Shown here: piece after piece, positions 27,434 through 63,110 of the stretch
Position numbering within the stretch: position 1 is the stretch's first letter
Layout of the letters: each line of letters starts with the position of its first letter
NCBI GenBank assembly: GCA_040384825.1
Contig: JAZKIO010000060.1
Coordinates: forward strand, 3,559 to 67,558
Direction of reading: 5' to 3'
Origin: Pseudomonadota bacterium
Lineage (GTDB): Bacteria; Pseudomonadota; Gammaproteobacteria; Burkholderiales; Burkholderiaceae_C
Length of the DNA stretch: 64,000 nucleotides
Program-made: the position numbers and the translations under genes
The notes under the pieces: model-generated
Databases searched by the model: none
Seen by the model: only the letters and a program-made list of their open reading frames with translations
What the model was told of the DNA's origin: nothing

Positions 27434-27571
27434 GTGATTCAGTACTACCCCCAAGCCACCGTCATCCCGACGGTTTTCTTCGCGGCCCATCCGCGGATTG
27501 CAGCCCGCTTTGCGCATCCGGCGACTGGCCGTTTCACCTTCACCGTCGGTGCGGAGGTGAACCATGGCTAA
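27434..27571 (+). CDS. Putative 45-aa leader ORF overlapping the integrase start
   Basis: AGGAG 8 nt before GTG 27434. Reads MIQYYPQATVIPTVFFAAHPRIAARFAHPATGRFTFTVGAEVNHG*; TAA overlaps the integrase ATG region by 8 nt. Confidence 0.5.
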   Translation: MIQYYPQATVIPTVFFAAHPRIAARFAHPATGRFTFTVGAEVNHG

Positions 27572-29490: not shown

Positions 29491-29736
29491 CTAGAAGCCT
29501 CCACGCCAGGCGTCTTGTTCGCGAAACTGCTCGCGGATGAAGTTCTCCACGGACTTGCGGCTCCAATAGACGCGCTTGCCTACACGTACGGCGGGTGGGA
29601 ACTCGTTGCGGCGGACGGCCATCTCGAGAGCGCGGGGCGACATCTGCAGGAAATCGCAGACCTGCTGCTTGGTCAGGATGCTTTGCGGGTCGGCAGCGAA
29701 GGAGGTTGCGGCGACGGGGGAAGAGGAGGGGGCCAT
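29491..29736 (-). CDS. AlpA/Xis-like winged-HTH (putative excisionase)
   Basis: ILTKQQVCDFLQMSPRALEMAVRRNEFPPAVRVGKRVYWSRKSVENFI matches the AlpA/excisionase pattern. Confidence 0.85.
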   Translation of the reverse strand: MAPSSSPVAATSFAADPQSILTKQQVCDFLQMSPRALEMAVRRNEFPPAVRVGKRVYWSRKSVENFIREQFREQDAWRGGF

Positions 29737-30200
29737 GAAATGCTCGGCGTAGTGGTGGTGCCTCGTGTAGTCATGGGTTTTAGTCAGGCGGTCGACACCG
29801 ATGGGAGGCTGGGCCTCGCGAACCTGCCATAGACCGCGCGCCGCCTTGGTCGCGGCCGGCGGGGACCCCAAAACCGCGTGTTCAAGGTCCGTCCTTACGT
29901 ATGGGTGATGGCGCAGCCGGCGGACCGGGATGCGCAGTAGACGCGGAAATCGTCCGCAGTCCTTCACCAGAAAAAGACAGAGAGACCAGAGGGTCGGGTC
30001 GCGAGGGGACGCGGTACTGCAGGGAAGGGCCGTCGCTAGCCGGCGGACCGCCAAATGGCTGGATTGCCGGGTGCGCAAACGCACAGTGGTGCATACGCTC
30101 CTGGCCTACGCGACCGAGGTGCCGCCTCTCGTATAGGTCTTCGAGTCTTCGAGACAAGCTCGGCTAAACCGCTCGACTACACGTCAGGTATGGGTCGCAT

Positions 30201-32114: not shown

Positions 32115-32357
32115 ATGAAAGCAGAACGAACCATCTCCATGAGCCTCCGGGTGACGCCGAAATTTCGGCGTTTGCTCGAGACCGCAGCTGAGCGTGAAAA
32201 CCGCAGCCTGACGAACATGCTCGAAACGTTGCTTCTGGAGTTCTGCGCCACACACGGCATCGAAGAGTCGAAACAGCCGTCTGCTATGGAGAGCTCGGCG
32301 CTTGCGGGGGAGCACGGCAGCGCAGTCTCCCGGCCAAAGGCTAAGCGACGGTCCTAA
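32115..32357 (+). CDS. Small ribbon-helix-helix (Arc/CopG-like) DNA-binding protein
   Basis: TISMSLRVTPKFRRLLETAAERENRSLTNMLETLL is a beta-alpha-alpha RHH pattern. Confidence 0.8.
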   Translation: MKAERTISMSLRVTPKFRRLLETAAERENRSLTNMLETLLLEFCATHGIEESKQPSAMESSALAGEHGSAVSRPKAKRRS

Positions 32358-32388
32358 AAAGAACACCAAGACGAAGCCGACCTCCAAT

Positions 32389-34131
32389 ATGCCATTGCCG
32401 CCGAAATCCCTCTTTTCTCGAAAAGTGCGCCTCCTCGCAACAGCGGTTCGCCAAAGCGGCGCGGACGCCACGACGATGGTCGGTACCTTGCTTGCGTCGC
32501 TTTGCGAGCGCGCGTATCCGGGCCTGCCGGCCAGCGACCTCAAGGTCTCGCGTCGACTGGCGGCGCTTCCCGAGGTGAAAAGCTTTGTCGAGATGCTTGC
32601 AGCGGCGCCGTTCCTTGACGCGGCCTATTGGCTGAGCAGTGCGTACGCCATCTGCACTGGTGATGCGCATCGCAAGTCGCTGGCAATGTTCTTCACGCCG
32701 CCGTCCCTGACAAGTCGACTACTTGATGACCTTGCGGCCAAAGGAGTGAGATTCGACGAAGGAAAGTTCTGCGACCCGGCATGCGGTGGTGCCGCATTTT
32801 TGGCTCCCATCGCGTTGCGGATGAAAGAGCAGTTGGGTGCCAATGGTCTGCGTCCTCGGAAGGTTCTGGAGCATGTAGCAAGCCACATCTTCGGCACCGA
32901 CCTCGACCCGACTTTGTGTGCGCTGTCGAAGCACTTCCTGTTGATGGCGCTCCGAGAAGAAGTGCTCGCGGCAAAGGGCTGGACACCAGAGTTCCAAGTA
33001 AAGCCCGGTGACTCGCTAATCGACCTTTCGAGAAGCTATGGCTCATTCGATGTCATCGCATGCAACTCACCCTTCAGGAAGATGACCGCCGCTGAGGTTG
33101 AGCGGTATAGGCCTGGATTCGATGACGTCATCGAAGGGCAGCCAAATCTGTACGGCCTTTTCATGGCATTGAGTGTGCGGTTGTTGAAGGACCAAGGGGT
33201 TGCCGCGCTGGTAACGCCTACCAGCTTCTTGTCTGGCCAATACTTCCGAAAGGTACGCACTTTTTTGATGAGCAACGTTGACGTGCTCAACATCGGAATG
33301 GTGAGCGACCGCCTAGGCGTGTTCATCGACGTTGAGCAAGAGACGGCGCTCACTCTAGTCCGCCGACGGCAGCAGACGGCGGCGGCAGCGGCGACGGCGA
33401 GCGTTTCAGTCGTCGCGACTGACGGGCAATACGCAAACGTAGGCAAGTGCAACCTCCCAAATTCGGGCGCAGCGTGGCCAATTCCGCGCACGGAAGGTGA
33501 CGTGACGCTGCTTGGCGCTGCAGATTTGGGCCACGCGACCCTCAAAGACTACGGCTACAAGGTCCGCATCGGCAACTTCGTATGGAACCGGGATGCTCGA
33601 CCTGTATACCGAAACCGCACTGAGGTACTGAAAAGCAAAAGTAAGACCGCGATTCCACTTTTGTGGTCGAGTGATATTGGCGCCGATGGCTCCCTGGATA
33701 TCAGCGCCGACCCCAAGGACCGTGACGAACATAGGTTCGTTGACTTTGGCGATGAGTGCCACCCCTCTGTCGTCAGGCGTCCAAGCGTCCTGATGCAGCG
33801 TGTGACTTCCAACGACCAGCCGCGACGACTTGTCGCCGCAGCTGTGCCAGCCGCACTATTGGCAACCTACGGCGGGTATGTCGGCGAGAACCACACCGTG
33901 ATTGTTGAGCAGGTCTCCGACAAGCCGGTTCTCTCGGCGCGAAAGCTTGCCAAGCTGCTCTCCTCTCCAACGGTCGACAGATATTTTCGTTGCATCTCTG
34001 GTGCGACGAATGTCTCCGCCTTCGAACTGGGGCAGCTGGCATTGCCGGACCCCGAGACACTCAAGGCGCTGCTTCGCGAAGGGCTAAGCATGAACGACGC
34101 TGTTAACAAAGCGTTCTTCAAGGGCGCCTGA
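32389..34131 (+). CDS. Amino (N6-adenine-type, gamma-class) DNA methyltransferase with C-terminal TRD
   Basis: MFFTPP (motif X), CDPACGGAAFL (motif I), IFGTDLD, DVIACNSPF (motif IV variant), NLYGLF, LVTPTSFLSG; TaqI/Eco57I-like C-terminal region. Confidence 0.88.
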   Translation: MPLPPKSLFSRKVRLLATAVRQSGADATTMVGTLLASLCERAYPGLPASDLKVSRRLAALPEVKSFVEMLAAAPFLDAAYWLSSAYAICTGDAHRKSLAMFFTPPSLTSRLLDDLAAKGVRFDEGKFCDPACGGAAFLAPIALRMKEQLGANGLRPRKVLEHVASHIFGTDLDPTLCALSKHFLLMALREEVLAAKGWTPEFQVKPGDSLIDLSRSYGSFDVIACNSPFRKMTAAEVERYRPGFDDVIEGQPNLYGLFMALSVRLLKDQGVAALVTPTSFLSGQYFRKVRTFLMSNVDVLNIGMVSDRLGVFIDVEQETALTLVRRRQQTAAAAATASVSVVATDGQYANVGKCNLPNSGAAWPIPRTEGDVTLLGAADLGHATLKDYGYKVRIGNFVWNRDARPVYRNRTEVLKSKSKTAIPLLWSSDIGADGSLDISADPKDRDEHRFVDFGDECHPSVVRRPSVLMQRVTSNDQPRRLVAAAVPAALLATYGGYVGENHTVIVEQVSDKPVLSARKLAKLLSSPTVDRYFRCISGATNVSAFELGQLALPDPETLKALLREGLSMNDAVNKAFFKGA

Positions 34132-34173
34132 CGGCGCGCTATACGAGACAAGTTCGCAAACAATAACAAGAAC

Positions 34174-36927
34174 ATGCCGCCTCCCATTTCCCTTGGAAAG
34201 CGCAACCAAGCTCGCGAAAAAGCGCTAACCGCTCAACACGAGCGTATTCAACAGATTCGAGCCCGTCAGCAGGCGAAGGCTCCCACCGCACCAGGCGTGG
34301 ACGCAGTCCCAGGCGGCGACGACCGGCCGTCTGCACCAACCGCCCCGCCTCTACCTTCCCAACCGTGGAAATCGGTCAAAGCAGGGTCGGCAGGTCTGGC
34401 CTTCGCTTCACGCGCGCAACCTGACGTGCCAGTGTTGGTTCAACCGTGGGCGTCAGCTCTCACTGATGATGTACTGGTGGCTGCAAAGTCTGGCGGCGTC
34501 GTGTTGGCCCTTGTTTGGCCAGCACGGATTGACAGCCTCGTCCCGCTTCACGCCTTGGCGAATCTCGAGCGAAACATGGCCGCGGACCTGTGCGGGCTTC
34601 GAACGCTTCTCTACCCGGGGACCCACACGTCGGCGGGTCCACTTCAAAGCTTCCTGGTCAATCGTGGTGCGCTGACGGACATGTACCGTCGTCTTTGGGT
34701 CGAAGTCGAGGGGAAAACCGTTCGGCGCGCCGCGACGGAATCAGACTCCTTCACAGCGGTCCTCGCAGCGCTGAATGACATCCGAAACCACGCGTCTGAG
34801 GTTGCTCACCCCGCAGCAGCTGAGACGGTTCCCACGTTCGTCTTCTCTGGCGAAGCTTGGCGAACGACTGTCAGCCAGCCGCTGGAACGCTCCCTTCGTA
34901 AGGTCAGCCGGCTCGCTCATCGCCGCCAGATTCGCGACGGTATCAACTCAAACTGGAGCAACTACAAGACCGCACCGGGAGCGCTGCTGGTAGTCCATGG
35001 CGGCCTAGGTCGTCCAGGCTGGAAGGCCGCCTTTGGCGCGCTCAACCAGTCAGGTGTTCTCCCGCCCGAGGTCATGCTGATTGATGCAACGTGGGCTTGT
35101 CAGCGGAATCACCAGAAGGCCTTCGCTCGAATCCCTGAGTTCCTTGCTTACGCGCGCGACCAAGGCACCAGCAAGGCCGGTGCGGTCATCGTCACTGATG
35201 ACCCAAAGACGTTCTTTGTCCTGAGAAAGCGCCTGGCGGACAGCAACTTTCGTGTCGAAGCAAGGGCATACGCGGCGGAGGCGGAACATGTTTTGCTGTC
35301 GCCCGACCCGCGCACACCGGGTTGGAAGCCGGAGACGAAAAGCAACGCCAACTTCACCGTCGGCATCGTCGACCGTGACGCTGCTTCAGTCGCGGTTACC
35401 TTTCACCGCCTTGCTCATGAGGTCGGGGACGACGATGGAGCCGGTCACCATGCTTTGATGGAGGCCTGCCTCTACGTATTGCGCGTCTCGAACATGCCTG
35501 CAGGCTTTACCGACCTCACAGAGTCCGCTGCGGCCGGAGAAATCGACGTCTACTCGATGGAACGAAATTCGTGGCCGTCGGTGCAACTGCGTATCCATGC
35601 CGCTCTCGATGCCGGCGCGATGGGTGACCAGCGCAAGCAGGTCGAAGACGCGCTCGCCAGGGCGCGGTCGCTGATTGCCGCATGGACCGATGCGACACCT
35701 ATGGCTGCTCGACTCCTTAGCATCATCGAGCGACACGCCGCGCACCCCAAGGGTCACCTGTGCCTGGTTTTGCCGAATCAGCGCTACATCCGACTCGCGT
35801 CGCGATACCTGCTGAGGAAGTTGGGTTCGAAATGGGCTGACATAGAACCCGGCTTGGAATGGCACACGCTGGCATCTGCAGGCAAGAACTTGTCACAAGA
35901 AGGTCTGGAGCGCAAGTTTGTCTTCGTCGGAGCAAACATTGATGTGTTGCGCATCTTGCTCGCGCATCCCGACATCCCGCACGGCACAACAGTTCTCATT
36001 GCCTATCGACAAGCGGAATCGCTCGCAGTCACGTTGCGGTCTATGAAGGAGCTCGACGCTCTTAAGCCCTACCGTGGCCGAATCGGGCTTCTTTTGCAAG
36101 AACTGGAGCGGCGACTTAGCGATGTGACGCACCCAGTGCCGAATTTGAGCCGCCTCGGCGACATGTCCTTCACCATGAAGTTTGAAGAGCCGTCCGGTAT
36201 GGACCCGTCCACCGACCAGCATTACTACCGCTTCGACCTCGAAGGCGGTCGCCATGCCTACAGCTCCGGTTGGGTGTATCGCTACGAGCCGCATGAGGAC
36301 CCGTTCTTTCGTCGGACAACAGTGACGCAAATCGAAGTTGGCACGCTGGTGTTCGACATGACTGATGAGCTGCGACGCAAGGTTGAAGAGGCGCTGCATG
36401 TCAACGGCGGCACTCTCGGTTCCGTGGTCCACCCTGAGCGCGCCTTTCTCAAGCTGTACCACGAGGATGTGCAGCGACGTTGCGCAGCAAAGTTTCCCTC
36501 CAGCACTCGCACCGCGCTGGCTGCGGCCATTCACAAGCGGATGCTGGAACTGGACCCCAGCGTTTCTGATTGCCCGGTGGAGCGGTTGACGTATTGGCTC
36601 ACGCTGACAGAGGCCGACACTCGTCCACACGCGCCAAAGCACTCGAAATACTTCAAGGTGTTTTGCAGCGCGCTGGACATCAGCGAATCGGACACGCTGA
36701 CCTACTGGAATTTCATACGAAACGCTCGTCGCCTCAACCAGAACCTTGGTCGGGTCCTGGCCGCGCAGTACGCCGAAATTCTCTTTCAACCTGAGAGCGC
36801 CGTGGCCTACCGAAAAATCCCACTTGAGATGGTCGAGCAGCTTCAGCAGGAAGCGATTCGTTGCGTGTTCCGCGTTGAAGCTGTCCACGCGCCGAAGCCC
36901 GCCCCTGCACCCCGGAAGGCATCCTGA
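34174..36927 (+). CDS. 917-aa protein of unknown function, possibly DrmE-like / degenerate helicase fold
   Basis: Long ORF coupled to the helicase (TGATG overlap). Repeated beta-alpha units but no intact Walker A or SNF2 motifs. The DrmE link is inferred from position and C-terminal pattern. Confidence 0.7.
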   Translation: MPPPISLGKRNQAREKALTAQHERIQQIRARQQAKAPTAPGVDAVPGGDDRPSAPTAPPLPSQPWKSVKAGSAGLAFASRAQPDVPVLVQPWASALTDDVLVAAKSGGVVLALVWPARIDSLVPLHALANLERNMAADLCGLRTLLYPGTHTSAGPLQSFLVNRGALTDMYRRLWVEVEGKTVRRAATESDSFTAVLAALNDIRNHASEVAHPAAAETVPTFVFSGEAWRTTVSQPLERSLRKVSRLAHRRQIRDGINSNWSNYKTAPGALLVVHGGLGRPGWKAAFGALNQSGVLPPEVMLIDATWACQRNHQKAFARIPEFLAYARDQGTSKAGAVIVTDDPKTFFVLRKRLADSNFRVEARAYAAEAEHVLLSPDPRTPGWKPETKSNANFTVGIVDRDAASVAVTFHRLAHEVGDDDGAGHHALMEACLYVLRVSNMPAGFTDLTESAAAGEIDVYSMERNSWPSVQLRIHAALDAGAMGDQRKQVEDALARARSLIAAWTDATPMAARLLSIIERHAAHPKGHLCLVLPNQRYIRLASRYLLRKLGSKWADIEPGLEWHTLASAGKNLSQEGLERKFVFVGANIDVLRILLAHPDIPHGTTVLIAYRQAESLAVTLRSMKELDALKPYRGRIGLLLQELERRLSDVTHPVPNLSRLGDMSFTMKFEEPSGMDPSTDQHYYRFDLEGGRHAYSSGWVYRYEPHEDPFFRRTTVTQIEVGTLVFDMTDELRRKVEEALHVNGGTLGSVVHPERAFLKLYHEDVQRRCAAKFPSSTRTALAAAIHKRMLELDPSVSDCPVERLTYWLTLTEADTRPHAPKHSKYFKVFCSALDISESDTLTYWNFIRNARRLNQNLGRVLAAQYAEILFQPESAVAYRKIPLEMVEQLQQEAIRCVFRVEAVHAPKPAPAPRKAS

Positions 36928-39900
36928 TGACAGTGCTGAGCAAGAGCCCGAAAGCCATCCACGACGCATGCAAAGAAGCGGTCGTCGACAGTCTTTTGAA
37001 CAATCTTTCCGCGCGCTTGGCGGGGCGCGAGGAGTTCTACAAAATCATCTACAAGGGCAAGCCGAGCTCGGTGCTGATGTCCGAATTCATCCTCCCCATG
37101 CCGCCGGATGAGCGCGCAGGCGACGAGGAGGCAAACCCTATTCAAATCAGTGCCCACGGTTTGGACTTCCAAATCCTTCGGTCCGGTGCCTCGGAACGCA
37201 TGAAGGTTTCAGTTCGCGGTGCCGTGTACGTCCGCATCCTCCCGACCGAGGACGAAGTCAAGCCAGGCGGTCCGCTCTACCCGACGTTTCCGCTGACCAG
37301 GGAGGCTGCGCGGGAGCTCCGTTCGCGCATCAAAGACGCATTGGCAGCGCTGCGAACGGAACTTGGCATCACGAAGACAGTGCGCTTGCATCCGGACTGG
37401 CCTGCAAAGAGCGAGGAAGCTCGACGCAAAGCGCATGAGTCGCTTGGCATCCCTTTTGACAACAAGTTGGACCGCTCTCCAGTTGATGATTCTGGCGGAG
37501 ACGACGCACCGCCGGCTCCGTTGGAGGAAGACGACGGTTCCGGCATGCCGAGCGAGGCGCCGCCAGAGCGCGAGGCTCCGGCCGGCGCGACGCTGCCGGA
37601 CGCTCTTGCGCAAGCGATTGATGCACCCCCGAAATGGCTACGTCTCGATTTGGACCTGCCGCCATTTGAGTTCTCTCCTTCGACCTGCGCCGAGGACAGC
37701 GCCAACGCGTCACGCGCGCTGAACGAGGCAATTGCGCTCCAACTCGACCGTTGGGCGACGTCCGAGGAAGAGCCCTACGGCGGCAAGCTGTGGGGATTCA
37801 GGCACGCGGCGCCAATCCGTCCTTCAAGTATCCGCGACTGGAAGGCCTATCTGGCGTCGGTGCGCACCTCGAAGCTCCAGGTTGTTGTTCCCGTAATTGA
37901 ACTTCGCTGGGACATCGAGGCGCTTCCCGACCCTCGCGACCCTGAGCTGATGACCGTCCATGTGGCGTTGGAAAACTGGAGTGCTCCGCCGACGTCGCTC
38001 AACCATAAGGAAGTCGAGCCTTCCCTGTTTCAGCTGCAGGTCAGTTTGTCGCTGAATGTTGACGTGCATCGTCCTTTGCATCTTGACCGCGTGAAGCCGT
38101 CCTACAGGTACAACGAATATTTGCGATACCCGGCCTTGGGCTTCAACGGCGGGGTCACAGCCCACGACGAAGGCTCGACCCGTATCTTGCGAACCACGTG
38201 GACGCCACGTTACGTCCTGCCGCGCATTGTTCCCACCGACTGCGGCGCTGTTCGAAATATCAAAGCTCTTTCCGACCCGGCATCCCTTGCTGGACTCGCA
38301 CCCCTTGTCACAGCGTACTCGGCGTGGCTCGACGAGGTGAAGGACCGTCCTGTTGGCGCCGGCATCGAAGGACCGGATGCAGCGGAGCAACTCGGCCGCG
38401 AGCAGGAAAAGCTACAGCTCGATTTGAACGGTTGGCGAGAGGAGCTTGCCGCAATCCGCTGCGGCCTTGCGATTCTCGAGAAGTCCAAGGCTCACTGGAG
38501 CGGCCCCGGCGAGCAGAAGTCGCCGCTCGGAATCCCGTTTGAAGCTTGGTTGTCGATGAATGCGGCGATGGCGGGTGTCGCGGCGACGAAGGGCTACGAC
38601 GATTGGCGTCTGTTCCAGCTCGCCTTCATCCTCGCGTCTATTCCGACGTTTGCGACCCGAATTCCCGAATTTCACGACTTCTACGACCCCGTTGTATCCA
38701 AGCATGCGAACGCAGTCACCTTGCTCTACTTCGCAACGGGTGGCGGCAAGTCGGAAGCTTTCCTCGGTTTGCTGCTGTTCGTGCTGTTCATCGACAGGCT
38801 CCGGGGAAAACAGCACGGCGTGAGCGCGCTCATGCGTTATCCGCTACGCCTTCTGACCTTGCAGCAGGCGCGCCGAACGTTCGCCGTGATGGGCGCGGGC
38901 GAAGCCGTACGACACGCCCGCCAGCATCGCGGGGAACCGTTTTCACTCGGCTTCTGGGTTGGCGGAGCAAACACCCCAAACTGGCACAAGGAAGAAGGCT
39001 ACTCGGACATTCCGACGGAGCAAGCGGTGCCTCCGTCGCAGGAGCCGTCGTTCCAGAAGACTCAGCCGTACAAGACCTATAAGGAGCGCTGGCAGAAGCT
39101 CGAGGTCTGTCCGTTTTGCAACACGAGAGGCGGCCTGGCCCTTCGTAGAGCATCGGGCGCGGGCGGCAACGCACTGGGCCACTACTGCACCTCTGCGAAA
39201 GAGAAATGCTCTTGGAACGCCCGGCACGACGATATCAAGCCGCTTCCGTTCTACGTGGTGGACGAGGACATCTATGACCTTGCTCCATCGGTGCTGCTGG
39301 GCACGGTAGACAAGCTGTCGGCCCTCGGCCAGTCACAGGGAACCATCCGGAAGTTCTTTGGGATGTTCGGTTTCGCCCCGTTCATTGAGAAGAGCACGGA
39401 ACGACTCTTCATTCCCAGCGTGGCTAAAGACTGGGACGGAGAGCCCGGAGGGACCACCCATGGGCTGTTCCCAACGTTTGCCGACGGCAGGAAGCGGTTT
39501 TTCGACCCGTTTCCATCGTTGCTTATCCAGGACGAGGCCCATCTGCTGGACGAATCGCTTGGCACCTTCGCAGGTTTGTTCGAGTCCGCCCTTGAGGCCT
39601 CATTTAATCGACTGGGGTCGCTATTGCCTGGTCAGCTTTCCTACGAGCCAGGCTCGCAGGTCCGTCGAAAAATCAAAGTCATTGCCGCCTCCGCCACGGT
39701 AAGCGAGCCGCAGCGCCAGATGCGAAACCTGTACCAGCGGGGCAGCACCGTTCAGTTCCCGTACCCGGGTCCGAGCCTTTACACCTCGTTCTACGCGGCA
39801 CCCAGCGGACCAGACGACCGGCCGGAAGACGCCGACAGAAAAGCTCTGGTCACGGACGACATAGAACTGCGCAGCCACTGGGCTCGTGTTTACGCATCGG

Positions 39901-41156
39901 TTCTGACAAACGGACACCGCCATACCGTTGCGATGGCGTCTGTACTCGGGCACTACCATCTCGTAATCACCGGGCTCTACGAGCGACTGCGAAGCGGTGA
40001 CGCGAACGCTCAAGCCCTGGCCCGCGCAGAGCTCATTCGATGGGTGTCGGCAGGTCCGCTCTCTGGGCAACATGTTCGGGTCATCGAAACGTCAGACGCG
40101 GCGACGCTTTTGACGCTGGTCGACCTTCACCGCATTGCCTTGACCTATGTCACAAACAAGAAGGGCGGCGACCAGGTCATCGACACAGAAAAAGTGCAGT
40201 TCGAAAAGCTTCACGGGGCCAACGGCTACACGTCGGCGGTCCTGACTTCAGAGCTTCTGTCGGGCGCAGTATCGGCAGCCGGCATCCAGGACATCGTCCG
40301 CAGGGCGGAGAAGAGGGTCGCTGTCAATGCAGAGTTCCCAGACCCGAACGAGACCCTTCGCTCTGTCATCGCCACGTCTGCGATTTCCCACGGAGTAGAC
40401 GTCGAAGAGTTCAACGCGATGTTCTTCGCTGGTATGCCATCGGACATCGCTGAGTACATCCAAGCGTCTTCACGCGTGGGACGAACTCACGTCGGGTTCT
40501 CATTGCTCGTTCCGGTTCCTCAGAGGCCTCGCGACAGGTTCGTCTTGGAAGTGTTCGACATCTTCCACCGGTTCCTTGAACGGATGATTCTTCCAGCAGC
40601 GGTGGACCGATGGGCCGAGAAGGCACAGGTTCGAGTCATGCCAAGCTTCTTCCAGGAGTACGTATGCGGTGTCCACGCCATCCAGCTGCTTTGCGCTGCG
40701 GAGCCCGACAAGAAGCGTGCGTCGCCGAACTACGCGTACGCCACAGACGTGCGCGACTTCCTGGCGAACACGAAAGCCTTCACCGAAACGGAGCGCTTTA
40801 TGGTCGAGGCGCTTGGCCTTACTTCGCTGCCACCGCCTGAAGGACAGGCGTACTACAGAGCCCGACTGAAGAACGAAATCGGCAACTACCAGAGCGACCT
40901 CGGTGTTCCGATGCACGTGAACGGTACGCGACTGAACAAGTTCTTCGAGAGCCGGGCGAAGAATCTCCGACCAATGACATCCCTGCGCGACGTCGATGAG
41001 CCGGGGGTCATCTTCGAGTCGAAGCACGATGCCTCGTACAAGGAGGCGCCGGCCGATGCCACCGCAAGAGCGATGCTGTTTATTCGGCGCGGCTCTGGCG
41101 CAGATATCGACGATACCGAACCGAGAATCGAGGCTAAGGAGGGCGACTCGAAATGA
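36927..41156 (+). CDS. drmA: DISARM DrmA-like SF2 helicase
   Basis: Q motif WRLFQLAF, Walker A FATGGGKSEAF, YPLRLLTLQQ, GTVDK, QDEAH, ASATV, ATSAISHGVD, YIQASSRVGR. Confidence 0.88.
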   Translation: MTVLSKSPKAIHDACKEAVVDSLLNNLSARLAGREEFYKIIYKGKPSSVLMSEFILPMPPDERAGDEEANPIQISAHGLDFQILRSGASERMKVSVRGAVYVRILPTEDEVKPGGPLYPTFPLTREAARELRSRIKDALAALRTELGITKTVRLHPDWPAKSEEARRKAHESLGIPFDNKLDRSPVDDSGGDDAPPAPLEEDDGSGMPSEAPPEREAPAGATLPDALAQAIDAPPKWLRLDLDLPPFEFSPSTCAEDSANASRALNEAIALQLDRWATSEEEPYGGKLWGFRHAAPIRPSSIRDWKAYLASVRTSKLQVVVPVIELRWDIEALPDPRDPELMTVHVALENWSAPPTSLNHKEVEPSLFQLQVSLSLNVDVHRPLHLDRVKPSYRYNEYLRYPALGFNGGVTAHDEGSTRILRTTWTPRYVLPRIVPTDCGAVRNIKALSDPASLAGLAPLVTAYSAWLDEVKDRPVGAGIEGPDAAEQLGREQEKLQLDLNGWREELAAIRCGLAILEKSKAHWSGPGEQKSPLGIPFEAWLSMNAAMAGVAATKGYDDWRLFQLAFILASIPTFATRIPEFHDFYDPVVSKHANAVTLLYFATGGGKSEAFLGLLLFVLFIDRLRGKQHGVSALMRYPLRLLTLQQARRTFAVMGAGEAVRHARQHRGEPFSLGFWVGGANTPNWHKEEGYSDIPTEQAVPPSQEPSFQKTQPYKTYKERWQKLEVCPFCNTRGGLALRRASGAGGNALGHYCTSAKEKCSWNARHDDIKPLPFYVVDEDIYDLAPSVLLGTVDKLSALGQSQGTIRKFFGMFGFAPFIEKSTERLFIPSVAKDWDGEPGGTTHGLFPTFADGRKRFFDPFPSLLIQDEAHLLDESLGTFAGLFESALEASFNRLGSLLPGQLSYEPGSQVRRKIKVIAASATVSEPQRQMRNLYQRGSTVQFPYPGPSLYTSFYAAPSGPDDRPEDADRKALVTDDIELRSHWARVYASVLTNGHRHTVAMASVLGHYHLVITGLYERLRSGDANAQALARAELIRWVSAGPLSGQHVRVIETSDAATLLTLVDLHRIALTYVTNKKGGDQVIDTEKVQFEKLHGANGYTSAVLTSELLSGAVSAAGIQDIVRRAEKRVAVNAEFPDPNETLRSVIATSAISHGVDVEEFNAMFFAGMPSDIAEYIQASSRVGRTHVGFSLLVPVPQRPRDRFVLEVFDIFHRFLERMILPAAVDRWAEKAQVRVMPSFFQEYVCGVHAIQLLCAAEPDKKRASPNYAYATDVRDFLANTKAFTETERFMVEALGLTSLPPPEGQAYYRARLKNEIGNYQSDLGVPMHVNGTRLNKFFESRAKNLRPMTSLRDVDEPGVIFESKHDASYKEAPADATARAMLFIRRGSGADIDDTEPRIEAKEGDSK

Positions 41157-43354
41157 GCAAAGCAAAAACGATGAGCCGCTCGCGAAATCAAATCGCGAAC
41201 TCCTACGCTCCCGAGAGCTTTTTCACGTTTGAAGGAGGCAGCGGCGCGTGCATTGCCCACTCCGTACCGACGGAGTCCATCGAATTGGTGGATGCGACGA
41301 AGGAGCAGATTTTTGAGCGCATCAATGAGTTGGGTCGGGCATGGTTCGACGCCGCCATGGGCTGTCGAGATGCGGACGCTACTCAACCTCGTGTCTCCGC
41401 TCCTCAATGCGTGGACCCAAAGATGCTGGACAACACGAGGTCTGACTTCCAGGCTCCTGGTATAGAGCGTGTCCACCTGTGCCGTCCCTCCAGTATGGGC
41501 TACACGCCTGCGCCTCTTTCGTTCGTATGCCGGGCCTGTGGCTTGTTTCGCGATTTCACCACGTTGCGAGAGCTTGATGCGGCGATTTCGGCACTGAGCA
41601 CTACCAAGTGCCGAAAGCACGATGGTCCTTGTGATTGGGAACAGCTGGATGTCATCTTTGTTCATTGGTCCGGCAATTGGACCCAGCCGTTTCCCGGACA
41701 GTACCAGTGGAGCGACGTCGACGCCAAGGTCGTGAAGCGCAGGGACAAGTGCATCTGTGGTCATGAGGACTTCCGGCTCAATCGCCGGGCCGCTGGCATC
41801 GGCGACTGGTTCTTTGAATGTGCCAAGTGCGACAAGCCTCTCTCGCCGAAGTGGCGCCAAAACGATGAAGCCAGCCTACGCTTCATCGGGCCCGCTTTCA
41901 CGGAAGCCAGGCGGACTGAGGTGAGCATGCAGGCGGCGCCTTATCGCGCGTCCAGCGTCTACTACGTCAAGTCTGACCTCTTCATCGACTTCAAGGACGG
42001 CGGCCGCGACCTGCTGACGCGCCTGCGTCCGGGGCGCGAAGACGCGCTTAAGGATTTCGTGGCCAAGCAGTATGGCTTCGGCATATCCGAAGTGACCGAC
42101 GAGGAGGTGGAAGCAGCGTGCGCGGGCCGTCCTGACTGCGAGAAGGAATGGCTCGAGTTTCAGAGCAGCTCAGGTGCGATTAAGACCGGTGAAGCAATGG
42201 CCGCGACCGTGTCGGAGCCGATTCGAAGCGGCATTCTGACAATGTTGGCGACGGCGTACGAAGGTAAGAAGCGCATCATCGACGACCTGAGGCGTCGCGC
42301 CATTCTCCTTCCAAAGATTAGTCTTCCTGTGCCCTTGCTGGAGCGAATTCGACATCGACAGGTTTTATTTGCGTCCAAATTCGACCCCTTCCGGCTGGCA
42401 GTCGAGCACGCAACGTTGGACGCTACGAGACTTGCGGTGGAGAGTCGTGTGAACGGAAAGAAGCCGTATGTATCTTTCACTCGCCTCGATGAAGACCTCG
42501 CTCCCGAGACGGAAGTCGAGCGAGATGCTCTCCAGGCGGAGACTCAAGTAGCACTGACGAGGCTGGGCCTGGCGGATATGGGGCTCATTCGTGAATTCGA
42601 CCTCTGTCGGTTCTCGTTTGGCTATTCGCGCATGGAAGGGGGCCCCGTGCTGCACGACAAGCGTGGCATGAACATGCCGGTTCGCCTGAACATGTTCCCG
42701 CCGGTGATGCACAACTCGTCGTCTAAGAACCCAATCTATGTGGTCCAGCAAGGCAACGAGGCAATCTACGTCAAGCTCAAGCCTGAGCTAGTGCGGGCCT
42801 GGCTCTCCGACTTGGGCTGCCCGGACATGTTCAGCCTCAGTGGGGACGAAAAAATTGGCGCGGGAATTCTGGCTTGCTCTCAGCAGATGTCACCGTTCCT
42901 CGACAAGTTGCCCGAAAGCGATACCCCGCCGACCTACTTCTACCTGTATACGCTCCTGCATAGCTATTCACATCTCTTGATGAAGCACATGTCGGAATAC
43001 TCCGGCCTCGATATGGGGTCCTTGGGCGAGTACATTTTCCCGGCAGACTTGGCTTTCGTCGTCTATCGAAGCGGCACGACGATGGACCTGGGCAACCTCT
43101 CTGCCATGTGGCGGAACTCTGGGACGGCGATGCTGAACGCCATGCTCTCCCTGAAGGCGACGCAGTGCGGCACCGGTTCACTGTGCTCTCATCGCGGGGG
43201 TGCGTGCCCGGACTGCATCATGGTTCCGGAAACGTCTTGCGTCGCTAGCAACAAACTGCTGTCACGCTCGGTTCTTCGGGGCACTGGAAAGCGGCCGAAA
43301 TTCGATACCCGCCCCGAAGGCATCCGCGGCTTCTTCGAATACACGGGCGGGTGA
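41153..43354 (+). CDS. drmB: DISARM DrmB-like DUF1998 protein
   Basis: LLHSYSHLLMK, YIFP, GNLS and C-terminal C..C...GACPDC..VPETSC...N..LSR Zn motif; ATGA overlap with the helicase. Confidence 0.88.
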   Translation: MSKAKTMSRSRNQIANSYAPESFFTFEGGSGACIAHSVPTESIELVDATKEQIFERINELGRAWFDAAMGCRDADATQPRVSAPQCVDPKMLDNTRSDFQAPGIERVHLCRPSSMGYTPAPLSFVCRACGLFRDFTTLRELDAAISALSTTKCRKHDGPCDWEQLDVIFVHWSGNWTQPFPGQYQWSDVDAKVVKRRDKCICGHEDFRLNRRAAGIGDWFFECAKCDKPLSPKWRQNDEASLRFIGPAFTEARRTEVSMQAAPYRASSVYYVKSDLFIDFKDGGRDLLTRLRPGREDALKDFVAKQYGFGISEVTDEEVEAACAGRPDCEKEWLEFQSSSGAIKTGEAMAATVSEPIRSGILTMLATAYEGKKRIIDDLRRRAILLPKISLPVPLLERIRHRQVLFASKFDPFRLAVEHATLDATRLAVESRVNGKKPYVSFTRLDEDLAPETEVERDALQAETQVALTRLGLADMGLIREFDLCRFSFGYSRMEGGPVLHDKRGMNMPVRLNMFPPVMHNSSSKNPIYVVQQGNEAIYVKLKPELVRAWLSDLGCPDMFSLSGDEKIGAGILACSQQMSPFLDKLPESDTPPTYFYLYTLLHSYSHLLMKHMSEYSGLDMGSLGEYIFPADLAFVVYRSGTTMDLGNLSAMWRNSGTAMLNAMLSLKATQCGTGSLCSHRGGACPDCIMVPETSCVASNKLLSRSVLRGTGKRPKFDTRPEGIRGFFEYTGG

Positions 43355-44229
43355 TGTCGGCGCAGCTGAGTGCCTTCGAGAAGAACGTAGTGCGGCTGCT
43401 GGCTCCCCGAGCGGGCGTCGCTGCGAAAATTCTGGATGCCTGGGCTCGCGTTCCGACATCAACCGAACAGTCAGCGCGAATGCTCACAGGACTGGCTCAG
43501 TTGGGGCTGACTGAGGAGCGTGCGGCTCAGGAGGTGCTGGTATTAGCTTCTGCCGCCGGCCTTCTCGTTCAAGGAACTGGCGGCTTCAGTCCTGGTCCAA
43601 TTCCGGCCGGGACGTTCCAACGCCTAGCCCTCGCCCTCTTCGCGGTCGAGCACTACAAAGCTGCTGTTCACGAGGACGCCACCACGGCAAGGGTGGTGCT
43701 GACGAAGCCACCTCGACCTTGTGTCCTCGAAACCAAGCTTGCCGAGTTAGGCTGGCGAACGTTTGACCTTGAGCCGACCGAGCACGCGTTCAAGCGGATG
43801 GTGTACGAAGCCCAGTCTAGGGTCGTAGTGATGACGCCGTTTTTCGACGTGACCGGTGCACTTTGGCTAAAGGAGCTCTTCGAGGGCGTGTCTGAGCAAG
43901 TGACAAAAGTCTTGGTATTGCGGAGCCTCGAAGAGCCAACGCGGCAGGACTATCCGAAGGGCTTTGATGCGATTGCGTCGTGGCTGTCGGCGGAGAAGGT
44001 CGAGGTTTACAACTACTCGATTCCCCGTGCCCCGGGACCCGGCCGGGAGACCTTCCATGCCAAAGTTGTGCTCTGTGACAGTGATGTTGCCTACGTCGGG
44101 TCGTCCAACGTGAATGCAGCATCGTTGGAACACTCGATGGAGATGGGCGTCGCGATGCGCGGACGGGCCGCTCGAGACGTGGCCACAATTGTCTCGGCTG
44201 TACTCGTGTCCGCCAGCCGCATGTTCTGA
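43351..44229 (+). CDS. drmC: DISARM DrmC-like phospholipase D family nuclease
   Basis: Single HKD motif FHAKVVLCD...YVGSSN...SMEMG; overlaps the drmB stop. Confidence 0.88.
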   Translation: MMSAQLSAFEKNVVRLLAPRAGVAAKILDAWARVPTSTEQSARMLTGLAQLGLTEERAAQEVLVLASAAGLLVQGTGGFSPGPIPAGTFQRLALALFAVEHYKAAVHEDATTARVVLTKPPRPCVLETKLAELGWRTFDLEPTEHAFKRMVYEAQSRVVVMTPFFDVTGALWLKELFEGVSEQVTKVLVLRSLEEPTRQDYPKGFDAIASWLSAEKVEVYNYSIPRAPGPGRETFHAKVVLCDSDVAYVGSSNVNAASLEHSMEMGVAMRGRAARDVATIVSAVLVSASRMF

Positions 44230-44504
44230 AGCGAGCGCCTTTCATCCGGCTTCAGGTGCGTGGAGGCGCCAACGGTCAGCGCCCTTAGCTCGCGCATTCG
44301 TTGGCAGGCATCGCGCAGCATCTGGCAGGCCAGGCACGTTCCAACAGGCCGAACCGCCCTTCCTAGCGCTTCCCCCGGAAGGGAGGATAAAAAAGCTCGC
44401 TAGACGCTGGGCGAAGCGTTTTCGCCCGACATCCCTTGATATTGAGAACCTATATTGACTACCTGCATAGCGGCCACCCTTCAATCAAAAGGGTGGCAAC
44501 AAAA

Positions 44505-46493
44505 ATGCAGGAAAAGTCAATGAATTCAGTAAGTTATGAAATTCGCAGGTCTTTCAACCCGTCGCCTATACCTGCTTCGCAGGCGACAAAAATAGGAGGT
44601 CGGGCACGGAGAAGACACGTGGCTCAGCCGCTTACCTATCAAGACCTGCTCAACGGACAAGACAAACGGGTGCTCATGGGCACCGTCCACCCCCAGACCG
44701 CTGCGAATCGCGCTACAGCGCTACGCGTGTTCATGGGCTTTCTTAAACTTTCTGCTGAAGACCCGGTGGGGCAGGAATTTCGCGCCATGTTTCTGGCGCG
44801 CTGTCATGAACTCAGTGACCACCTCCGTACAGCCGGAAAAACGCCGCGGAACGTTGGCAACACGCTGTCGGCCTTGAAGTCGTGGCGACCAGTGGTCGTT
44901 GCCATCGACACCGACCATGCCATATCTGGCGACAAGCTCACACCCTTCGCTCAGGCCTTCCGTGCGTTGCTGAATGGAACGCCAGTGAAGCTGTTGGCAC
45001 GAACTATCGACGCGGCTCCCGGCATGCTCTACGGCTGGCAGGCGGGAAAGAATCCGCGACTGAGTAATTCCAAGTACCTGACCCGGGTGGAGCGCTACTT
45101 TGGGCTGCCCGATGGTGAGCTATCGACATTGGCGGGCTTTCGTCACGGTTCGTACGAACCGAAATCTGTTGGCGAGCCGCTCAAGATTGCGTACCGAGAC
45201 GGCCTCAAGGCAAAGAGCCACTACGTCTTCAAGCCCGCATTGGACTCTCCACTGCGAAAGCAGTGGCACGAACTGCTGGTCTACAAGACGGCTCGGGTGC
45301 CGACTCTCATTCGCAGCAACAAAGGCGTTTGGCGCCTATCCCCGCACGACATCGAGACCGAAAGGGAAGGGAACTGGTACCGGTTCCTGAATGGCTCTGA
45401 AGTGCCCACTGCCCATCCAAGGTGGAATCAGCTTGCGTCCTTCCTCGGATGGCTCGCGATGCCTGTACCGGCAGGAGGCATGGGTGTTCCTGAATCGGAA
45501 CTTCACACTTTGGCCTGGTTGACTCACTCAGCGTACGCTGAGAAGTATGTCGACTGGCTAATCGCGCGTGCCGGGAACCTCGTGAACGGCTCGGTAATCG
45601 AGTTTCTTGCGTTCATCAAGTCCATGACGCGTCCAGTCACCGGGTACTTGTGGCAGTTGCCCTCGTTTGCGAAAACGCTTCCGCTCGAGTTGCCTACCGA
45701 AAATTGGCAAGAGCACGCGGAGACGGCATGGCGTACGGCAAATGCGTCGGCTGTGGCGCTTCGGCCCTTGCTGGTACAAACTCGGGACCCCTCGGAACCA
45801 ATGAAGCACATCCTGGATACGGATAGCCCGCTGGAGTTCGTAGCGGACATGGTGCAGCGAATGCGGGCCGACCGTCCGTTGGGGCGCGCTCCATACACTG
45901 AGGCTAGGTGGGCGCGCAACGTCGCTCTTATCAAGTTCCTCGTCTCAAATCCTCTGCGCGTGCGCAACGTCTGCACGTTGACTTGGCGCGATGACAACTC
46001 TGGCCTTCTCTACCAGCGTCCGGACCGTTCGTGGTGGGTCCGCGTCCCAAAAGTGCACTTCAAGAACTTCAAGGGTGCAGCGTCAGACAACGAGTACGAC
46101 ATGCCGGTCCAGGAAACGGTTTGGCAAGACTTGGAGCGCTACTTGACGCTGCGGCCAAGATTGTTGAACGGTCCAAGTGACTACCTCTTCATTGGCGCCG
46201 GGCGCGGTCCTAGAGCTACTCTGTCGAAGCAGCCCTGGGAAGATTTGTCGCGCACGGTCGAGGACCTTACTCGAAAGTACTTGTGGCGCTGCCCTGGAAT
46301 CGGAACGCACGCGTTTCGTCACTTGGTCGCCACCGCCATCATCAAGGCGTCCAAGAATTCGGACTACAAGACCGCGGCCTTGGTGCTCAACGACCGCCTG
46401 TCCACAGTCGAGCGAAACTATGCGCACTTGAAATCGTCAGATGGGGCCAAGCGCATGGATGAACTGCTTGGGGACGTTCTGCGTCGCATGTAG
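44505..46493 (+). CDS. Large second tyrosine recombinase with internal XRE-like HTH (start uncertain, 44436-44520)
   Basis: NPLRVRN (R), FKNFK (K), THAFRH (HxxR), LNDRLSTVERNY (Y). Central VKLLARTIDAAPGMLYGWQAGKNP..SKYLTRVERYFGL HTH. Confidence 0.8.
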   Translation: MQEKSMNSVSYEIRRSFNPSPIPASQATKIGGRARRRHVAQPLTYQDLLNGQDKRVLMGTVHPQTAANRATALRVFMGFLKLSAEDPVGQEFRAMFLARCHELSDHLRTAGKTPRNVGNTLSALKSWRPVVVAIDTDHAISGDKLTPFAQAFRALLNGTPVKLLARTIDAAPGMLYGWQAGKNPRLSNSKYLTRVERYFGLPDGELSTLAGFRHGSYEPKSVGEPLKIAYRDGLKAKSHYVFKPALDSPLRKQWHELLVYKTARVPTLIRSNKGVWRLSPHDIETEREGNWYRFLNGSEVPTAHPRWNQLASFLGWLAMPVPAGGMGVPESELHTLAWLTHSAYAEKYVDWLIARAGNLVNGSVIEFLAFIKSMTRPVTGYLWQLPSFAKTLPLELPTENWQEHAETAWRTANASAVALRPLLVQTRDPSEPMKHILDTDSPLEFVADMVQRMRADRPLGRAPYTEARWARNVALIKFLVSNPLRVRNVCTLTWRDDNSGLLYQRPDRSWWVRVPKVHFKNFKGAASDNEYDMPVQETVWQDLERYLTLRPRLLNGPSDYLFIGAGRGPRATLSKQPWEDLSRTVEDLTRKYLWRCPGIGTHAFRHLVATAIIKASKNSDYKTAALVLNDRLSTVERNYAHLKSSDGAKRMDELLGDVLRRM

Positions 46494-46582
46494 CACTGTT
46501 GCAAGGCGTCGCTTGGGAGACCCGAGGTCGCTTTTCTGCAGTTCGAGGGGCTTGGCGGTAGAGAGGCAATTCGAAAGGCATA

Positions 46583-46617
46583 AGAAAAGCCCGCGACCAG
46601 AATCTGGTGGCGGGCTC
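46583..46617 (-). terminator. Probable intrinsic terminator for the minus-strand GGDEF fusion gene
   Basis: GCCCGC-GACCAGA-A-TCTGGT-G-GCGGGC hairpin preceded by AAGAAAA on +, i.e. followed by a U-rich tract on -. Confidence 0.55.
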
Positions 46618-63065: not shown

Positions 63066-63110
63066 TTGAAAATCCGCGTGTCGGTGGTTCGATTCCGCCC
63101 CAGGCCACCA
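63066..63110 (+). repeat. attR core (duplicated tRNA-Phe 3' half)
   Basis: Exact 45-bp copy of 27108-27152. Confidence 0.95.

What the first reader, a model, noticed from the sequence alone, without database searches (positions are those of the whole stretch)
44505..46493. Second, oversized tyrosine recombinase with an embedded XRE-like HTH in mid-island
At ~660 aa it has a SAM-like N-terminus, a central HTH and a catalytic domain with R, K, HxxR and Y, but N-D where the second His usually sits. It is not next to either att and directly follows the defence operon. It may mobilise or invert a sub-module, resolve circle dimers, or double as a regulator. It also marks the junction between the backbone/defence half and the cargo half.
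Basis: partly seen in the sequence, partly recalled or inferred. Interest (0 to 1): 0.6.

Follow-up and report, generated by a model that had tools for sequence, protein, structure and literature searches.

The report
Accessory recombinase-like enzyme of defence islands
The gene is real and encodes an unusually large, apparently active tyrosine-recombinase-type enzyme that recurs in the middle of mobile defence islands that already have their own integrase, so it is probably a DNA-nicking or resolving helper for the excised island rather than a second integrase.

Summary
Bases 44505-46493 (+) encode a 662-aa protein with five parts: a disordered tip, a SAM-like helical domain, an XRE-type HTH, a Cre-like core-binding domain and a catalytic domain. 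R485, K520, H602, R605 and Y639 are essentially invariant in 223 relatives. The "second His" position (629) is N in 104 and H in 97.

It is not peculiar to this island. It belongs to a large uncharacterised family (294 clusters at E<=1e-30). Where context could be read, members mostly sit mid-island in tRNA-inserted islands. Those islands carry a separate canonical integrase of varying family and target (tRNA-Phe, Asn, Lys, His). Different defence systems lie on either side of the gene.

The 36-kb island has no internal partner repeats, so inversion or sub-module excision is unsupported. The only conserved DNA outside the gene is a ~110-nt structured leader just upstream.

My best guess (about 0.4) is a strand-specific nickase of the excised circle, working like the recombinase-related MOB_M relaxases. 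A res-type multimer resolvase is nearly as likely (about 0.3). Membership in MOB_M is not shown.

Other agents of this scan read second recombinases on other DNA as MpsA-type relaxases. None of that DNA resembles this gene.

The parts
44505..46493 (+). Gene for the 662-aa tyrosine-recombinase-fold protein ('REC'). An alternative GTG start at 44619 gives 624 aa.
   Evidence: ORF and translation. 100 full-length relatives. 294 clusters at 50% identity with E<=1e-30. AF2 model with mean pLDDT 79.6.
44634..44927 (+). Residues 44-141: extra N-terminal SAM-like (core-binding-like) helical domain.
   Evidence: Domain model with pLDDT 87. Best structural matches are the N-terminal domains of VchIntIA, a Haloarcula integrase, XerD, XerA and Brujita Int, at Z 7.7-9.1. 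These are middling Z values for a helical bundle.
44943..45131 (+). Residues 147-209: XRE/Cro-type helix-turn-helix.
   Evidence: VIA Z 7-8 at rmsd 2.0-2.6 to HigA, CapH, DdrO, P22 c2 and the 434 repressor. Profile hit to 2kpj (E 0.025). HTH_3 or HTH_26 hits in 2 of 21 relatives.
45237..45869 (+). Residues 245-455: canonical core-binding domain.
   Evidence: Model residues 247-641 align to Cre residues 20-327 at Z 18.2. Foldseek matches Cre, Tre and XerH at E 7e-6 to 1e-4.
45891..46490 (+). Residues 463-662: catalytic domain with R485, K520, H602, R605, N629 and Y639, plus a C-terminal helix (648-661).
   Evidence: Pfam PF00589 at 27.2 bits, cut-off 27.1. Residue counts over 223 relatives.
44400..44551 (+). 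Conserved leader. In order: CTAGAC box 44400-44405; hairpin 1 44409-44427; 8-mer TACCTGCA 44460-44467, invariant in the 16 aligned leaders; hairpin 2 44473-44497 (9-nt arms, 7-nt loop, holds the SD); ATG 44505; GCAGGT 44545-44550 (complement of ACCTGC).
   Evidence: Sequence. The same layout appears upstream of relatives that are only 40-55% identical as proteins. All 9 pairs of hairpin 2 show changes on both sides; 79.5% of cells are paired against <=45% when the partner is slid. No Rfam family matches there.
46512..46536 (+). Terminator-like stem-loop after the stop codon. The gene is monocistronic here.
   Evidence: No downstream DNA conservation among relatives.
27077..27152 (+). tRNA-Phe. 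Its last 45 nt (27108-27152) form attL.
63066..63110 (+). attR, an exact 45-nt repeat of the tRNA-Phe 3' end. The island is about 36 kb.
   Evidence: G+C falls from 72% to 60% inside the island.
27564..28931 (+). Canonical integrase (455 aa) next to the tRNA.
   Evidence: PF00589 at 82.8 bits, plus a SAM_1 hit. Orthologues at 50-54% identity lie next to tRNA-Phe in L013, L017 and L027.
29491..30084 (-). HTH_17 (AlpA/excisionase-type) protein, part of the island backbone.
   Evidence: Relatives occur in L013, L017, L018 and L054.
32302..44229 (+). DISARM-like operon directly upstream: methylase, 917-aa unknown, DrmA, DrmB, DrmC.

Best explanation
SHOWN. REC is an intact member of a large, uncharacterised family of tyrosine-recombinase-fold enzymes. 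Its layout is an extra SAM-like domain, an XRE HTH, a Cre-like core-binding domain and a catalytic domain. It is a backbone gene of tRNA-inserted islands that carry defence systems. Those islands use a different, canonical integrase for chromosomal insertion. REC has one conserved cis region, the structured ~110-nt leader in front of its own gene, and no partner site elsewhere in the island.

INFERRED. After the integrase and excisionase release the island as a circle, REC binds the leader region through its HTH and core-binding domains. Y639 then cuts one DNA strand at or beside the invariant TACCTGCA, which lies next to hairpin 2. The enzyme would thus act as a relaxase-like nickase that starts single-strand transfer through a helper's conjugation pore, or rolling-circle copying. 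This is how the recombinase-related MOB_M relaxases TcpM, MobK and MpsA/MpsB work. The leader would double as a tight translational control of the enzyme.

I claim 'works like', not membership of MOB_M.
For: Chemistry is retained: R485 223/223, K520 223/223, H602 207/223 (the rest Q), R605 222/223, Y639 221/221.

REC is not the integrase. Where it could be checked (10 loci and genomes), a separate integrase adjoins the tRNA. The families and targets differ: Phe, Asn, Lys and His. REC lies 1-25 kb away, and mid-island in the two islands whose ends were found (window 36 kb; Achromobacter G402 28.7 kb).

I saw no relaxase among the island genes scanned.

The literature fits. Recombinase-related MOB_M relaxases are missed by standard profiles, are annotated as integrases, and 96% lie near an integrase (bioRxiv 10.64898/2026.01.13.699239). 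Only 5 of 21 REC relatives reach PF00589 at E<=0.01.

The cis pattern resembles an oriT: inverted-repeat arms that covary, next to an invariant 8-mer, directly upstream of the gene.

Distant relatives (23-27% identity) on 9-21-kb plasmids sit in an operon with a Toprim/P-loop primase-helicase, as nickases often do.

Position 629 is free to be N, H, Y or G, which suggests chemistry less demanding than full four-strand exchange.
Against: The three characterised MOB_M relaxases lack a core-binding domain (PMC8152469). REC has a complete Cre-like two-domain body plus a C-terminal helix, which is what a true recombinase needs.

No similarity to TcpM was detected (hhalign probability 0.5%). MpsA and MobK could not be tested.

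No VirB4 or VirD4/TraG profile match was found in the 97%-complete host genome, so no helper is in sight.

The leader pattern is equally compatible with a res-type site or with a purely RNA-level control. One compensatory change and some G-U-compatible changes in the long-range pairing point to RNA.

None of the loci examined places REC next to transfer genes.
Confidence: 0.4

Rival explanations
1. REC is a true site-specific recombinase that resolves multimers of the excised, replicating island (res-type system). The leader would be its recombination site: hairpin 2 as a 9-7-9 core, with the upstream boxes as accessory sites bound by the extra SAM-like and HTH domains. Binding there would also auto-repress the gene, as in Tn3 res/tnpR, Tn4430 IRS/tnpI and P1 loxP/cre (arrangements recalled from established knowledge).
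For: REC has a complete Cre-like core-binding plus catalytic body with a C-terminal helix (Z 18.2). There is one conserved site per island, directly upstream of the gene. Hairpin 2 has the geometry of a recombinase core site, and its arms covary as expected for a dimer site. The islands carry replication genes: a putative Rep at 30201-31700, TrfA in L023 and L031, and primase-helicases in the distant clade. The plasmid relatives sit beside ParA and the replication gene.
Against: The position that is His or Trp in working recombinases is N, H, Y, G or F across the family. At 660-760 aa the protein is far larger than known resolvases. The loop of hairpin 2 is more conserved than its arms, and the SD lies in one arm, which fits an RNA or single-strand hairpin at least as well. 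The island's own integrase could resolve attP dimers.
Confidence: 0.3
2. REC reassorts cargo. Recombination between the single mid-island sites of two related islands, one resident and one incoming, would swap the halves on either side of the gene and so shuffle defence modules.
For: Unrelated defence systems flank the gene on both sides in different relatives: DISARM, Zorya, type I R-M, Wadjet, Hachiman, Druantia DruA, and a GmrSD/RT/HEPN-RES cluster. The same operon lies upstream in L005 and L006 but downstream and inverted in L007. Family F12 lies upstream in L012 and L017 and downstream in L013.
Against: Homologous recombination between conserved backbone genes gives the same pattern without any special enzyme. 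No site relics were found at cargo borders, and DNA downstream of the gene is not conserved.
Confidence: 0.1
3. REC is the integrase of a separate element nested in, or accreted to, the tRNA-Phe island.
For: In the distant clade the layout small wHTH, then REC-like gene, then replication gene resembles the xis-int-rep operons of integrative plasmids.
Against: There is no third att copy and no repeat pair flanking the gene. There is no G+C step at the gene. In the two islands whose ends were found the gene lies mid-island; in the other loci it lies 1-25 kb from the tRNA-adjacent integrase.
Confidence: 0.07
4. REC is mainly a DNA-binding regulator, like the recombinase-fold phage repressors YopR and SroF.
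For: It has an XRE HTH. YopR and SroF appear among the structural matches (Z 10-12). The conserved leader overlaps the gene's own ribosome-binding site.
Against: The catalytic R, K, R and Y residues are 99-100% conserved (H602 in 207 of 223) over a family that has diverged to 25-30% identity.
Confidence: 0.07

Closest known systems
MOB_M relaxases related to tyrosine recombinases: TcpM (pCW3), MobK (pIGRK), MpsA with MpsB (SGI1)
   Same: They share the recombinase-fold catalytic domain with a tyrosine nucleophile. They are annotated as integrases and missed by standard profiles. They lie near a real integrase in islands without another relaxase. A conserved hairpin-rich region lies just upstream of the gene. 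MpsB supplies a core-binding-like domain, which REC carries in the same chain.
   Different: Of the known members checked here, TcpM is 266 aa; all three are described as lacking core-binding and arm-binding domains (PMC8152469). REC is 662 aa with two core-binding-type domains and an HTH. No sequence similarity to TcpM was detected. No transfer genes or helper were seen. Activity is untested.
Cre/loxP, XerCD/dif-cer and Tn4430 TnpI/IRS: simple tyrosine recombinases that resolve multimers
   Same: REC gives its best structural match to Cre over both domains (Z 18.2). There is a single site close to the gene, and hairpin 2 has a 9-7-9 inverted-repeat geometry.
   Different: REC is twice the size, with about 240 extra N-terminal residues. 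The His/Trp-III position is not conserved. Sequence similarity to XerD is only E 0.016.
Lambda-type integrases with an arm-binding domain
   Same: REC has an additional N-terminal DNA-binding module in front of the core-binding and catalytic domains.
   Different: The extra module is a SAM-like domain plus an XRE HTH, not an arm-binding fold. The gene is not beside an att site, and another integrase does that job.

Membership tests
Tyrosine recombinase superfamily (PF00589 fold) | Catalytic-domain fold | tested here: met
   Cre Z 18.2; XerH Z 16.4; integron integrase Z 15.3. PF00589 at 27.2 bits against a cut-off of 27.1.
Tyrosine recombinase superfamily (PF00589 fold) | R-K-H-R-(H/W)-Y active-site residues | tested here: inconclusive
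   R485, K520, H602, R605 and Y639 are present and 93-100% conserved. The fifth position is N629 here, and N104/H97/Y7/G6/F2 across the family.
Tyrosine recombinase superfamily (PF00589 fold) | Core-binding domain in front of the catalytic domain | tested here: met
   Model residues 247-455 align to the Cre N-terminal domain.
MOB_M (recombinase-like relaxases) | Sequence relationship to TcpM, MobK or MpsA, or a score over the MOB_M profile cut-off | tested here: inconclusive
   hhalign of the family profile against TcpM gave probability 0.5%. MobK, MpsA and the published profile were not available in these tools. The known members are themselves not detectably similar to each other (PMC8152469).
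MOB_M (recombinase-like relaxases) | Catalytic domain only, without core-binding or arm-binding domains (as described for the three studied members) | tested here: not met
   REC has a Cre-like core-binding domain plus an extra SAM-like domain and an HTH.
MOB_M (recombinase-like relaxases) | Lies near an integrase in an island or plasmid, with a cognate oriT beside the gene | tested here: inconclusive
   An integrase in the same island is shown in 10 loci and genomes. A conserved hairpin plus invariant 8-mer lies upstream, but oriT function is unproven.
MOB_M (recombinase-like relaxases) | Tyr-dependent, strand-specific nicking and mobilisation | not testable with these tools
   Needs biochemistry and mating assays.
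Multimer-resolution recombinases (Cre/Xer/TnpI type) | Single recombination site per replicon, next to the gene, with inverted arms around a 6-8-bp spacer | tested here: inconclusive
   Hairpin 2 (44473-44497) has 9-nt arms and a 7-nt spacer, and is unique in the island. The same element holds the SD and may act as RNA.
Island or prophage integrase | Gene adjacent to an att site that bounds the element | tested here: not met
   The gene is 17.3 kb from attL and 16.6 kb from attR. Another integrase adjoins the tRNA.

The most novel reading that the evidence does not exclude
REC defines a new class of island enzyme: a full-length, double core-binding, HTH-bearing tyrosine recombinase that works at one site in its own leader. 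It would either start DNA transfer as a new architectural class of recombinase-type relaxase, or swap the defence modules on either side of it between related islands. In the second case it would act as a dedicated 'module exchanger' for defence islands.
Probability: 0.3. Interest if true: 0.75.

Novelty: new variant of a known kind. Interest (0 to 1): 0.55.

Why it matters
How defence islands without transfer genes move and reshuffle their cargo is largely unknown. This family is large: 873 cluster representatives at E<=0.001. Pfam barely detects it, and the literature searches run here found no study of it. It sits in the middle of islands that carry DISARM, Zorya, Wadjet, Hachiman, Druantia and R-M systems.

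If it is a relaxase, many 'immobile' defence islands become mobilisable elements, and recombinase-type relaxases gain a new architecture. If it is a resolvase or exchanger, it explains both island maintenance and the two variable slots beside it. In either case the gene and its leader are a practical marker for finding defence hotspots in Betaproteobacteria-type genomes.

Tried and rejected
Contexts came from the search for related loci, the genome search and the fetch from genomes instead.
- A single-protein scan of genome contigs found nothing. The alignment-based scan worked.
- REC was not found in 400 sampled genomes of the class. The first integrase was found in only 1 of 400. I could therefore not measure how often that integrase type occurs without REC.
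- A search for partner sites gave only chance-level repeats in the island, and TACCTGCA occurs once.
- Rfam found nothing in the leader.
- The sigma-70 scan found no promoter.
- The 134-aa ORF at 46441-46845 has no family and spans the terminators, so I treated it as spurious.
- Comparison with TcpM, and with the large ORF that follows REC in L014, gave nothing.
- F12, often next to REC, has no Pfam or PDB relative and is not like the window's 499-aa protein.
- I considered telomere resolvases because of their size. I rejected them because the catalytic Tyr is 23 residues from the C-terminus and the best folds are Cre and Xer.
- I planned a PADLOC tally over all neighbours but dropped it. The set exceeded the size limit, and per-family counts would not give a usable fraction.
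Full report
1. THE OBJECT

An open frame runs 44436-46493 on the + strand. The ATG at 44505 gives 662 residues. The database's copy of the protein the window encodes begins at GTG 44619 and gives 624 aa. I keep the ATG for two reasons. An SD-like AAGGGTGG lies 7 nt upstream. Residues 1-38, although predicted disordered (pLDDT 30-40), carry a motif (SYExRRYFxPSxxxASQ) that relatives conserve with synonymous codon changes.

Pfam sees only a borderline Phage_integrase match (27.2 bits against a cut-off of 27.1, residues 469-642). NCBIfam and PADLOC give nothing useful. Only 5 of 21 relatives reach PF00589 at E<=0.01.

2. ARCHITECTURE

An AF2 model built on 21 sequences has mean pLDDT 79.6.
- Residues 245-645 superpose on the whole of Cre, both domains (VIA Z 18.2, 287 residues, rmsd 4.4). 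XerH, integron integrase, Tn1549 Int and lambda Int follow (Foldseek).
- A separate model of residues 40-250 has pLDDT 87.
- In it, residues 44-136 match best the SAM-like N-terminal domains of recombinases (VchIntIA Z 9.1, a Haloarcula integrase domain Z 8.5, XerD, XerA, Brujita). These Z values are middling for a helical bundle.
- Residues 144-216 match XRE-type HTHs at Z 7-8 and rmsd about 2-2.6.

The protein therefore reads: disordered tip, SAM-like domain, XRE HTH, linker, core-binding domain, catalytic domain with a C-terminal helix. Two corrections apply: the HTH is in the N-terminal third, and a second, canonical core-binding domain was overlooked.

3. ACTIVE SITE

I aligned 223 full-length relatives, diverged down to roughly 28% identity to the query. 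The counts are:
- R485: 223/223
- K520: 223/223
- H602: 207 (Q in 16)
- R605: 222/223
- Y639: 221/221

Position 629 aligns with XerD His270 through the shared L-S-T motif. It is N in 104 relatives, H in 97, Y in 7, G in 6 and F in 2. D630 is nearly invariant. The cleavage chemistry is therefore under strong selection. The residue that is His or Trp in working recombinases is not.

4. FAMILY SIZE AND RANGE

The exhaustive search gave 873 cluster representatives at E<=0.001 and 294 at E<=1e-30. Most are 620-690 aa and align end to end. Named members come from Achromobacter, Crenobacter, Pandoraea, Rhodoferax, Paraburkholderia, Azonexus, Rubrivivax and Vogesella. The gene is sparse: none of 400 sampled genomes of the class has it.

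5. THE ISLAND

The window's left flank is 72% G+C. From about 27 kb onward G+C is about 60%. tRNA-Phe lies at 27077-27152. Its last 45 nt are repeated exactly at 63066-63110, which defines a 36-kb island.

The island contains, in order:
- a canonical integrase (27564-28931; PF00589 at 82.8 bits)
- a 151-aa ORF
- an HTH_17 excisionase-type gene
- a 499-aa protein with a C-terminal HTH
- a DISARM-like operon (32302-44229)
- REC
- a convergent GGDEF-SIR2-OGFr_N gene
- further cargo

REC lies 17.3 kb from attL and 16.6 kb from attR. There is no third att copy, no repeat pair around REC and no G+C step at REC.

6. CONTEXT OF RELATIVES

I fetched 85 loci and clustered their ORFs.

The same plan (tRNA, then integrase, then variable genes, then REC) recurs widely.
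- tRNA-Phe, with orthologues of the window's integrase at 50-54% identity: L013, L017, L027.
- tRNA-Phe in Rhodoferax G404, with REC about 25 kb from the integrase.
- tRNA-Asn, with a 27-33% identical integrase: L018, L046, L079.
- tRNA-Lys in Achromobacter kerstersii G402. This island spans 19135-47909 with a repeat of at least 40 nt, and REC lies at 34074-36053.
- tRNA-His in G405, with an integrase that the first family's profile does not match.

In L018 the backbone shrinks to tRNA, integrase, excisionase, a small ORF and REC. REC thus travels with integrases of different families and targets. It is not the chromosomal integrase. It is also not a specific partner subunit of the first integrase.

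7. FLANKS ARE DEFENCE SLOTS

Different defence systems lie next to REC in different relatives:
- DISARM (window)
- Zorya type I (L004)
- an Eco57I-type methylase with RT, GmrSD, HEPN/RES and HNH genes (L005-L007)
- type I R-M (L008, L020, L052)
- Wadjet JetCD (L008)
- a NERD-kinase-helicase and a UvrD/PD-(D/E)XK-M78 protein (L009)
- Hachiman (L027)
- Druantia DruA (L017)
- a DEAD/MZB giant helicase and an SNF2-NOV_C protein (L012, L013, L079)

Some cargo changes sides. The L005/L006 operon is upstream there but downstream and inverted in L007. Family F12 is upstream in L012 and L017 and downstream in L013.

8. THE ONLY CONSERVED CIS DNA

Downstream of the stop codon nothing is conserved among 54%-identical relatives. 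A terminator-like hairpin follows at 46512-46526.

Upstream, about 110 nt are conserved. The elements are, in order:
- a CTAYAC box (44400-44405)
- hairpin 1 (44409-44427)
- a variable spacer
- TACCTGCA (44460-44467), invariant in 16 loci whose proteins are only 40-55% identical, with variants TACYTGYR further out
- hairpin 2 (44473-44497; 9-nt arms, 7-nt loop) whose right arm is the SD
- the ATG
- GCAGGT(A) in codons 14-16 (44545-44550), the complement of ACCTGC

These are documented.

On the 16-sequence alignment all 9 pairs of hairpin 2 show changes on both sides. Overall, 79.5% of cells pair against <=45% when the partner is slid, and no shuffle of 500 reaches the observed covariation. The long-range TACCTGC/GCAGGTA pairing is almost invariant, so it cannot be judged by covariation. 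One relative (L005) has a compensatory change, and others have G-U-compatible changes.

Rfam has no match. TACCTGCA occurs once in the window.

Three readings fit this pattern: an oriT (covarying hairpin beside an invariant nick region), a res-type recombination site, or an RNA leader that buries the ribosome-binding site.

9. DISTANT RELATIVES

At 23-29% identity, REC-like genes of 675-760 aa form a fixed operon. A LexA-type winged-helix protein comes first, then the REC-like gene, then an 800-890-aa Toprim plus P-loop primase-helicase. This operon occurs in Acidobacteria contigs and on small plasmids:
- Acinetobacter pYUSHP14-3 (9.8 kb)
- Acinetobacter p3_060092 (12.2 kb)
- Acinetobacter pANC7892.1 (8.9 kb)
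- Deinococcus pDrdII (21.5 kb)

On these plasmids it sits beside ParA. The three Acinetobacter plasmids are typed non-mobilisable with no replicon type given; pDrdII is typed non-mobilisable but carries a replicon type (rep_cluster_2427). This ties the wider family to the processing of circular replicons, not to chromosomal insertion.

10. WHAT IT MOST LIKELY DOES

The literature describes MOB_M relaxases (TcpM, MobK, MpsA with MpsB). They are enzymes of the recombinase fold that nick oriT with their tyrosine. Standard profiles miss them. They are often annotated as integrases, and 96% lie near a real integrase (bioRxiv 10.64898/2026.01.13.699239; PMC8152469; PMC6414798).

REC fits that ecological niche, and I saw no relaxase among the island genes scanned. 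Its relaxed position 629 and the primase-helicase linkage of distant relatives also fit a nickase. I therefore rank a relaxase-like nickase first, at about 0.4.

Several points count against it. The studied MOB_M proteins lack a core-binding domain, whereas REC has a complete Cre-like body. TcpM shows no similarity. The host genome shows no VirB4 or VirD4 match.

A res-type multimer resolvase of the excised, replicating island is nearly as good, at about 0.3. It explains the full recombinase body and the single site in front of the gene. Cargo exchange between islands (0.1), a nested-element integrase (0.07) and a pure regulator (0.07) are less likely, for the reasons given under the rival explanations.

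11. NOVELTY

My literature searches returned no paper on this family or architecture. It is a new, well-populated variant within the tyrosine-recombinase superfamily, with a distinctive context.

Other agents of this scan reached 'MpsA-type relaxase' readings for second recombinases on other DNA. Those notes are not evidence here. A word-based look-up with REC found only one barely similar stretch in another genome (3 of 180 words), not among those notes.

Noticed in passing
window 44400-44551: A conserved structured leader lies upstream of REC: CTAYAC box, hairpin 1, TACCTGCA (invariant in the 16 aligned leaders), an SD-sequestering hairpin 2, and a complementary GCAGGT in codons 14-16. It has no Rfam match and is conserved in relatives whose proteins are only 40-55% identical.
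   Followed up: partly
window 28928-29383 and L027:2233-3828: The 151-aa ORF that overlaps the stop of the first integrase is 39% identical over 103 residues to the N-terminus of the REC homologue in L027 and L028. There it is fused in frame to REC residues 205-662. This is either a deletion that joined the two genes or a domain swap hinting at a functional link.
   Followed up: partly
L096 (pYUSHP14-3), L098, L099, L097 (pDrdII): Small plasmids carry a core operon of a LexA-type wHTH, a REC-like 675-757-aa recombinase and a Toprim/P-loop protein of about 890 aa, next to ParA. The three Acinetobacter plasmids have no replicon type given; pDrdII is typed rep_cluster_2427. This may be an undescribed plasmid replication, maintenance or mobilisation module.
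   Followed up: partly
L014:5981-10549 and L002:2370-5675: In two 54%-identical relatives REC is followed, with overlapping stop and start, by a very long ORF (over 1100 aa) that has a weak Phage_integrase match (26 bits). A tRNA-Ser is predicted on the opposite strand inside the L014 ORF, so its true extent is unclear.
   Followed up: no
window 49939-50021 (-): A c-di-GMP-I-GGC riboswitch-like match (47 bits, below the gathering score of 59; E 6.6e-9) lies in front of the GGDEF-SIR2-OGFr_N gene that converges on REC.
   Followed up: no
L005:227-9211, L006:52-9568, L007:1874-11410: A recurring cluster lies next to REC: an Eco57I-type methylase, a 660-aa unknown, a 1270-1290-aa protein with a weak RVT_1 match (L006 and L007 only), GmrSD, and HNH (HEPN/RES in L005 only). 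It may be an undescribed composite defence system.
   Followed up: no
G000 whole genome: No match to VirB4 (PF03135) or VirD4/TraG (PF02534) profiles in the 97%-complete assembly. No conjugative helper is evident with these two queries.
   Followed up: partly
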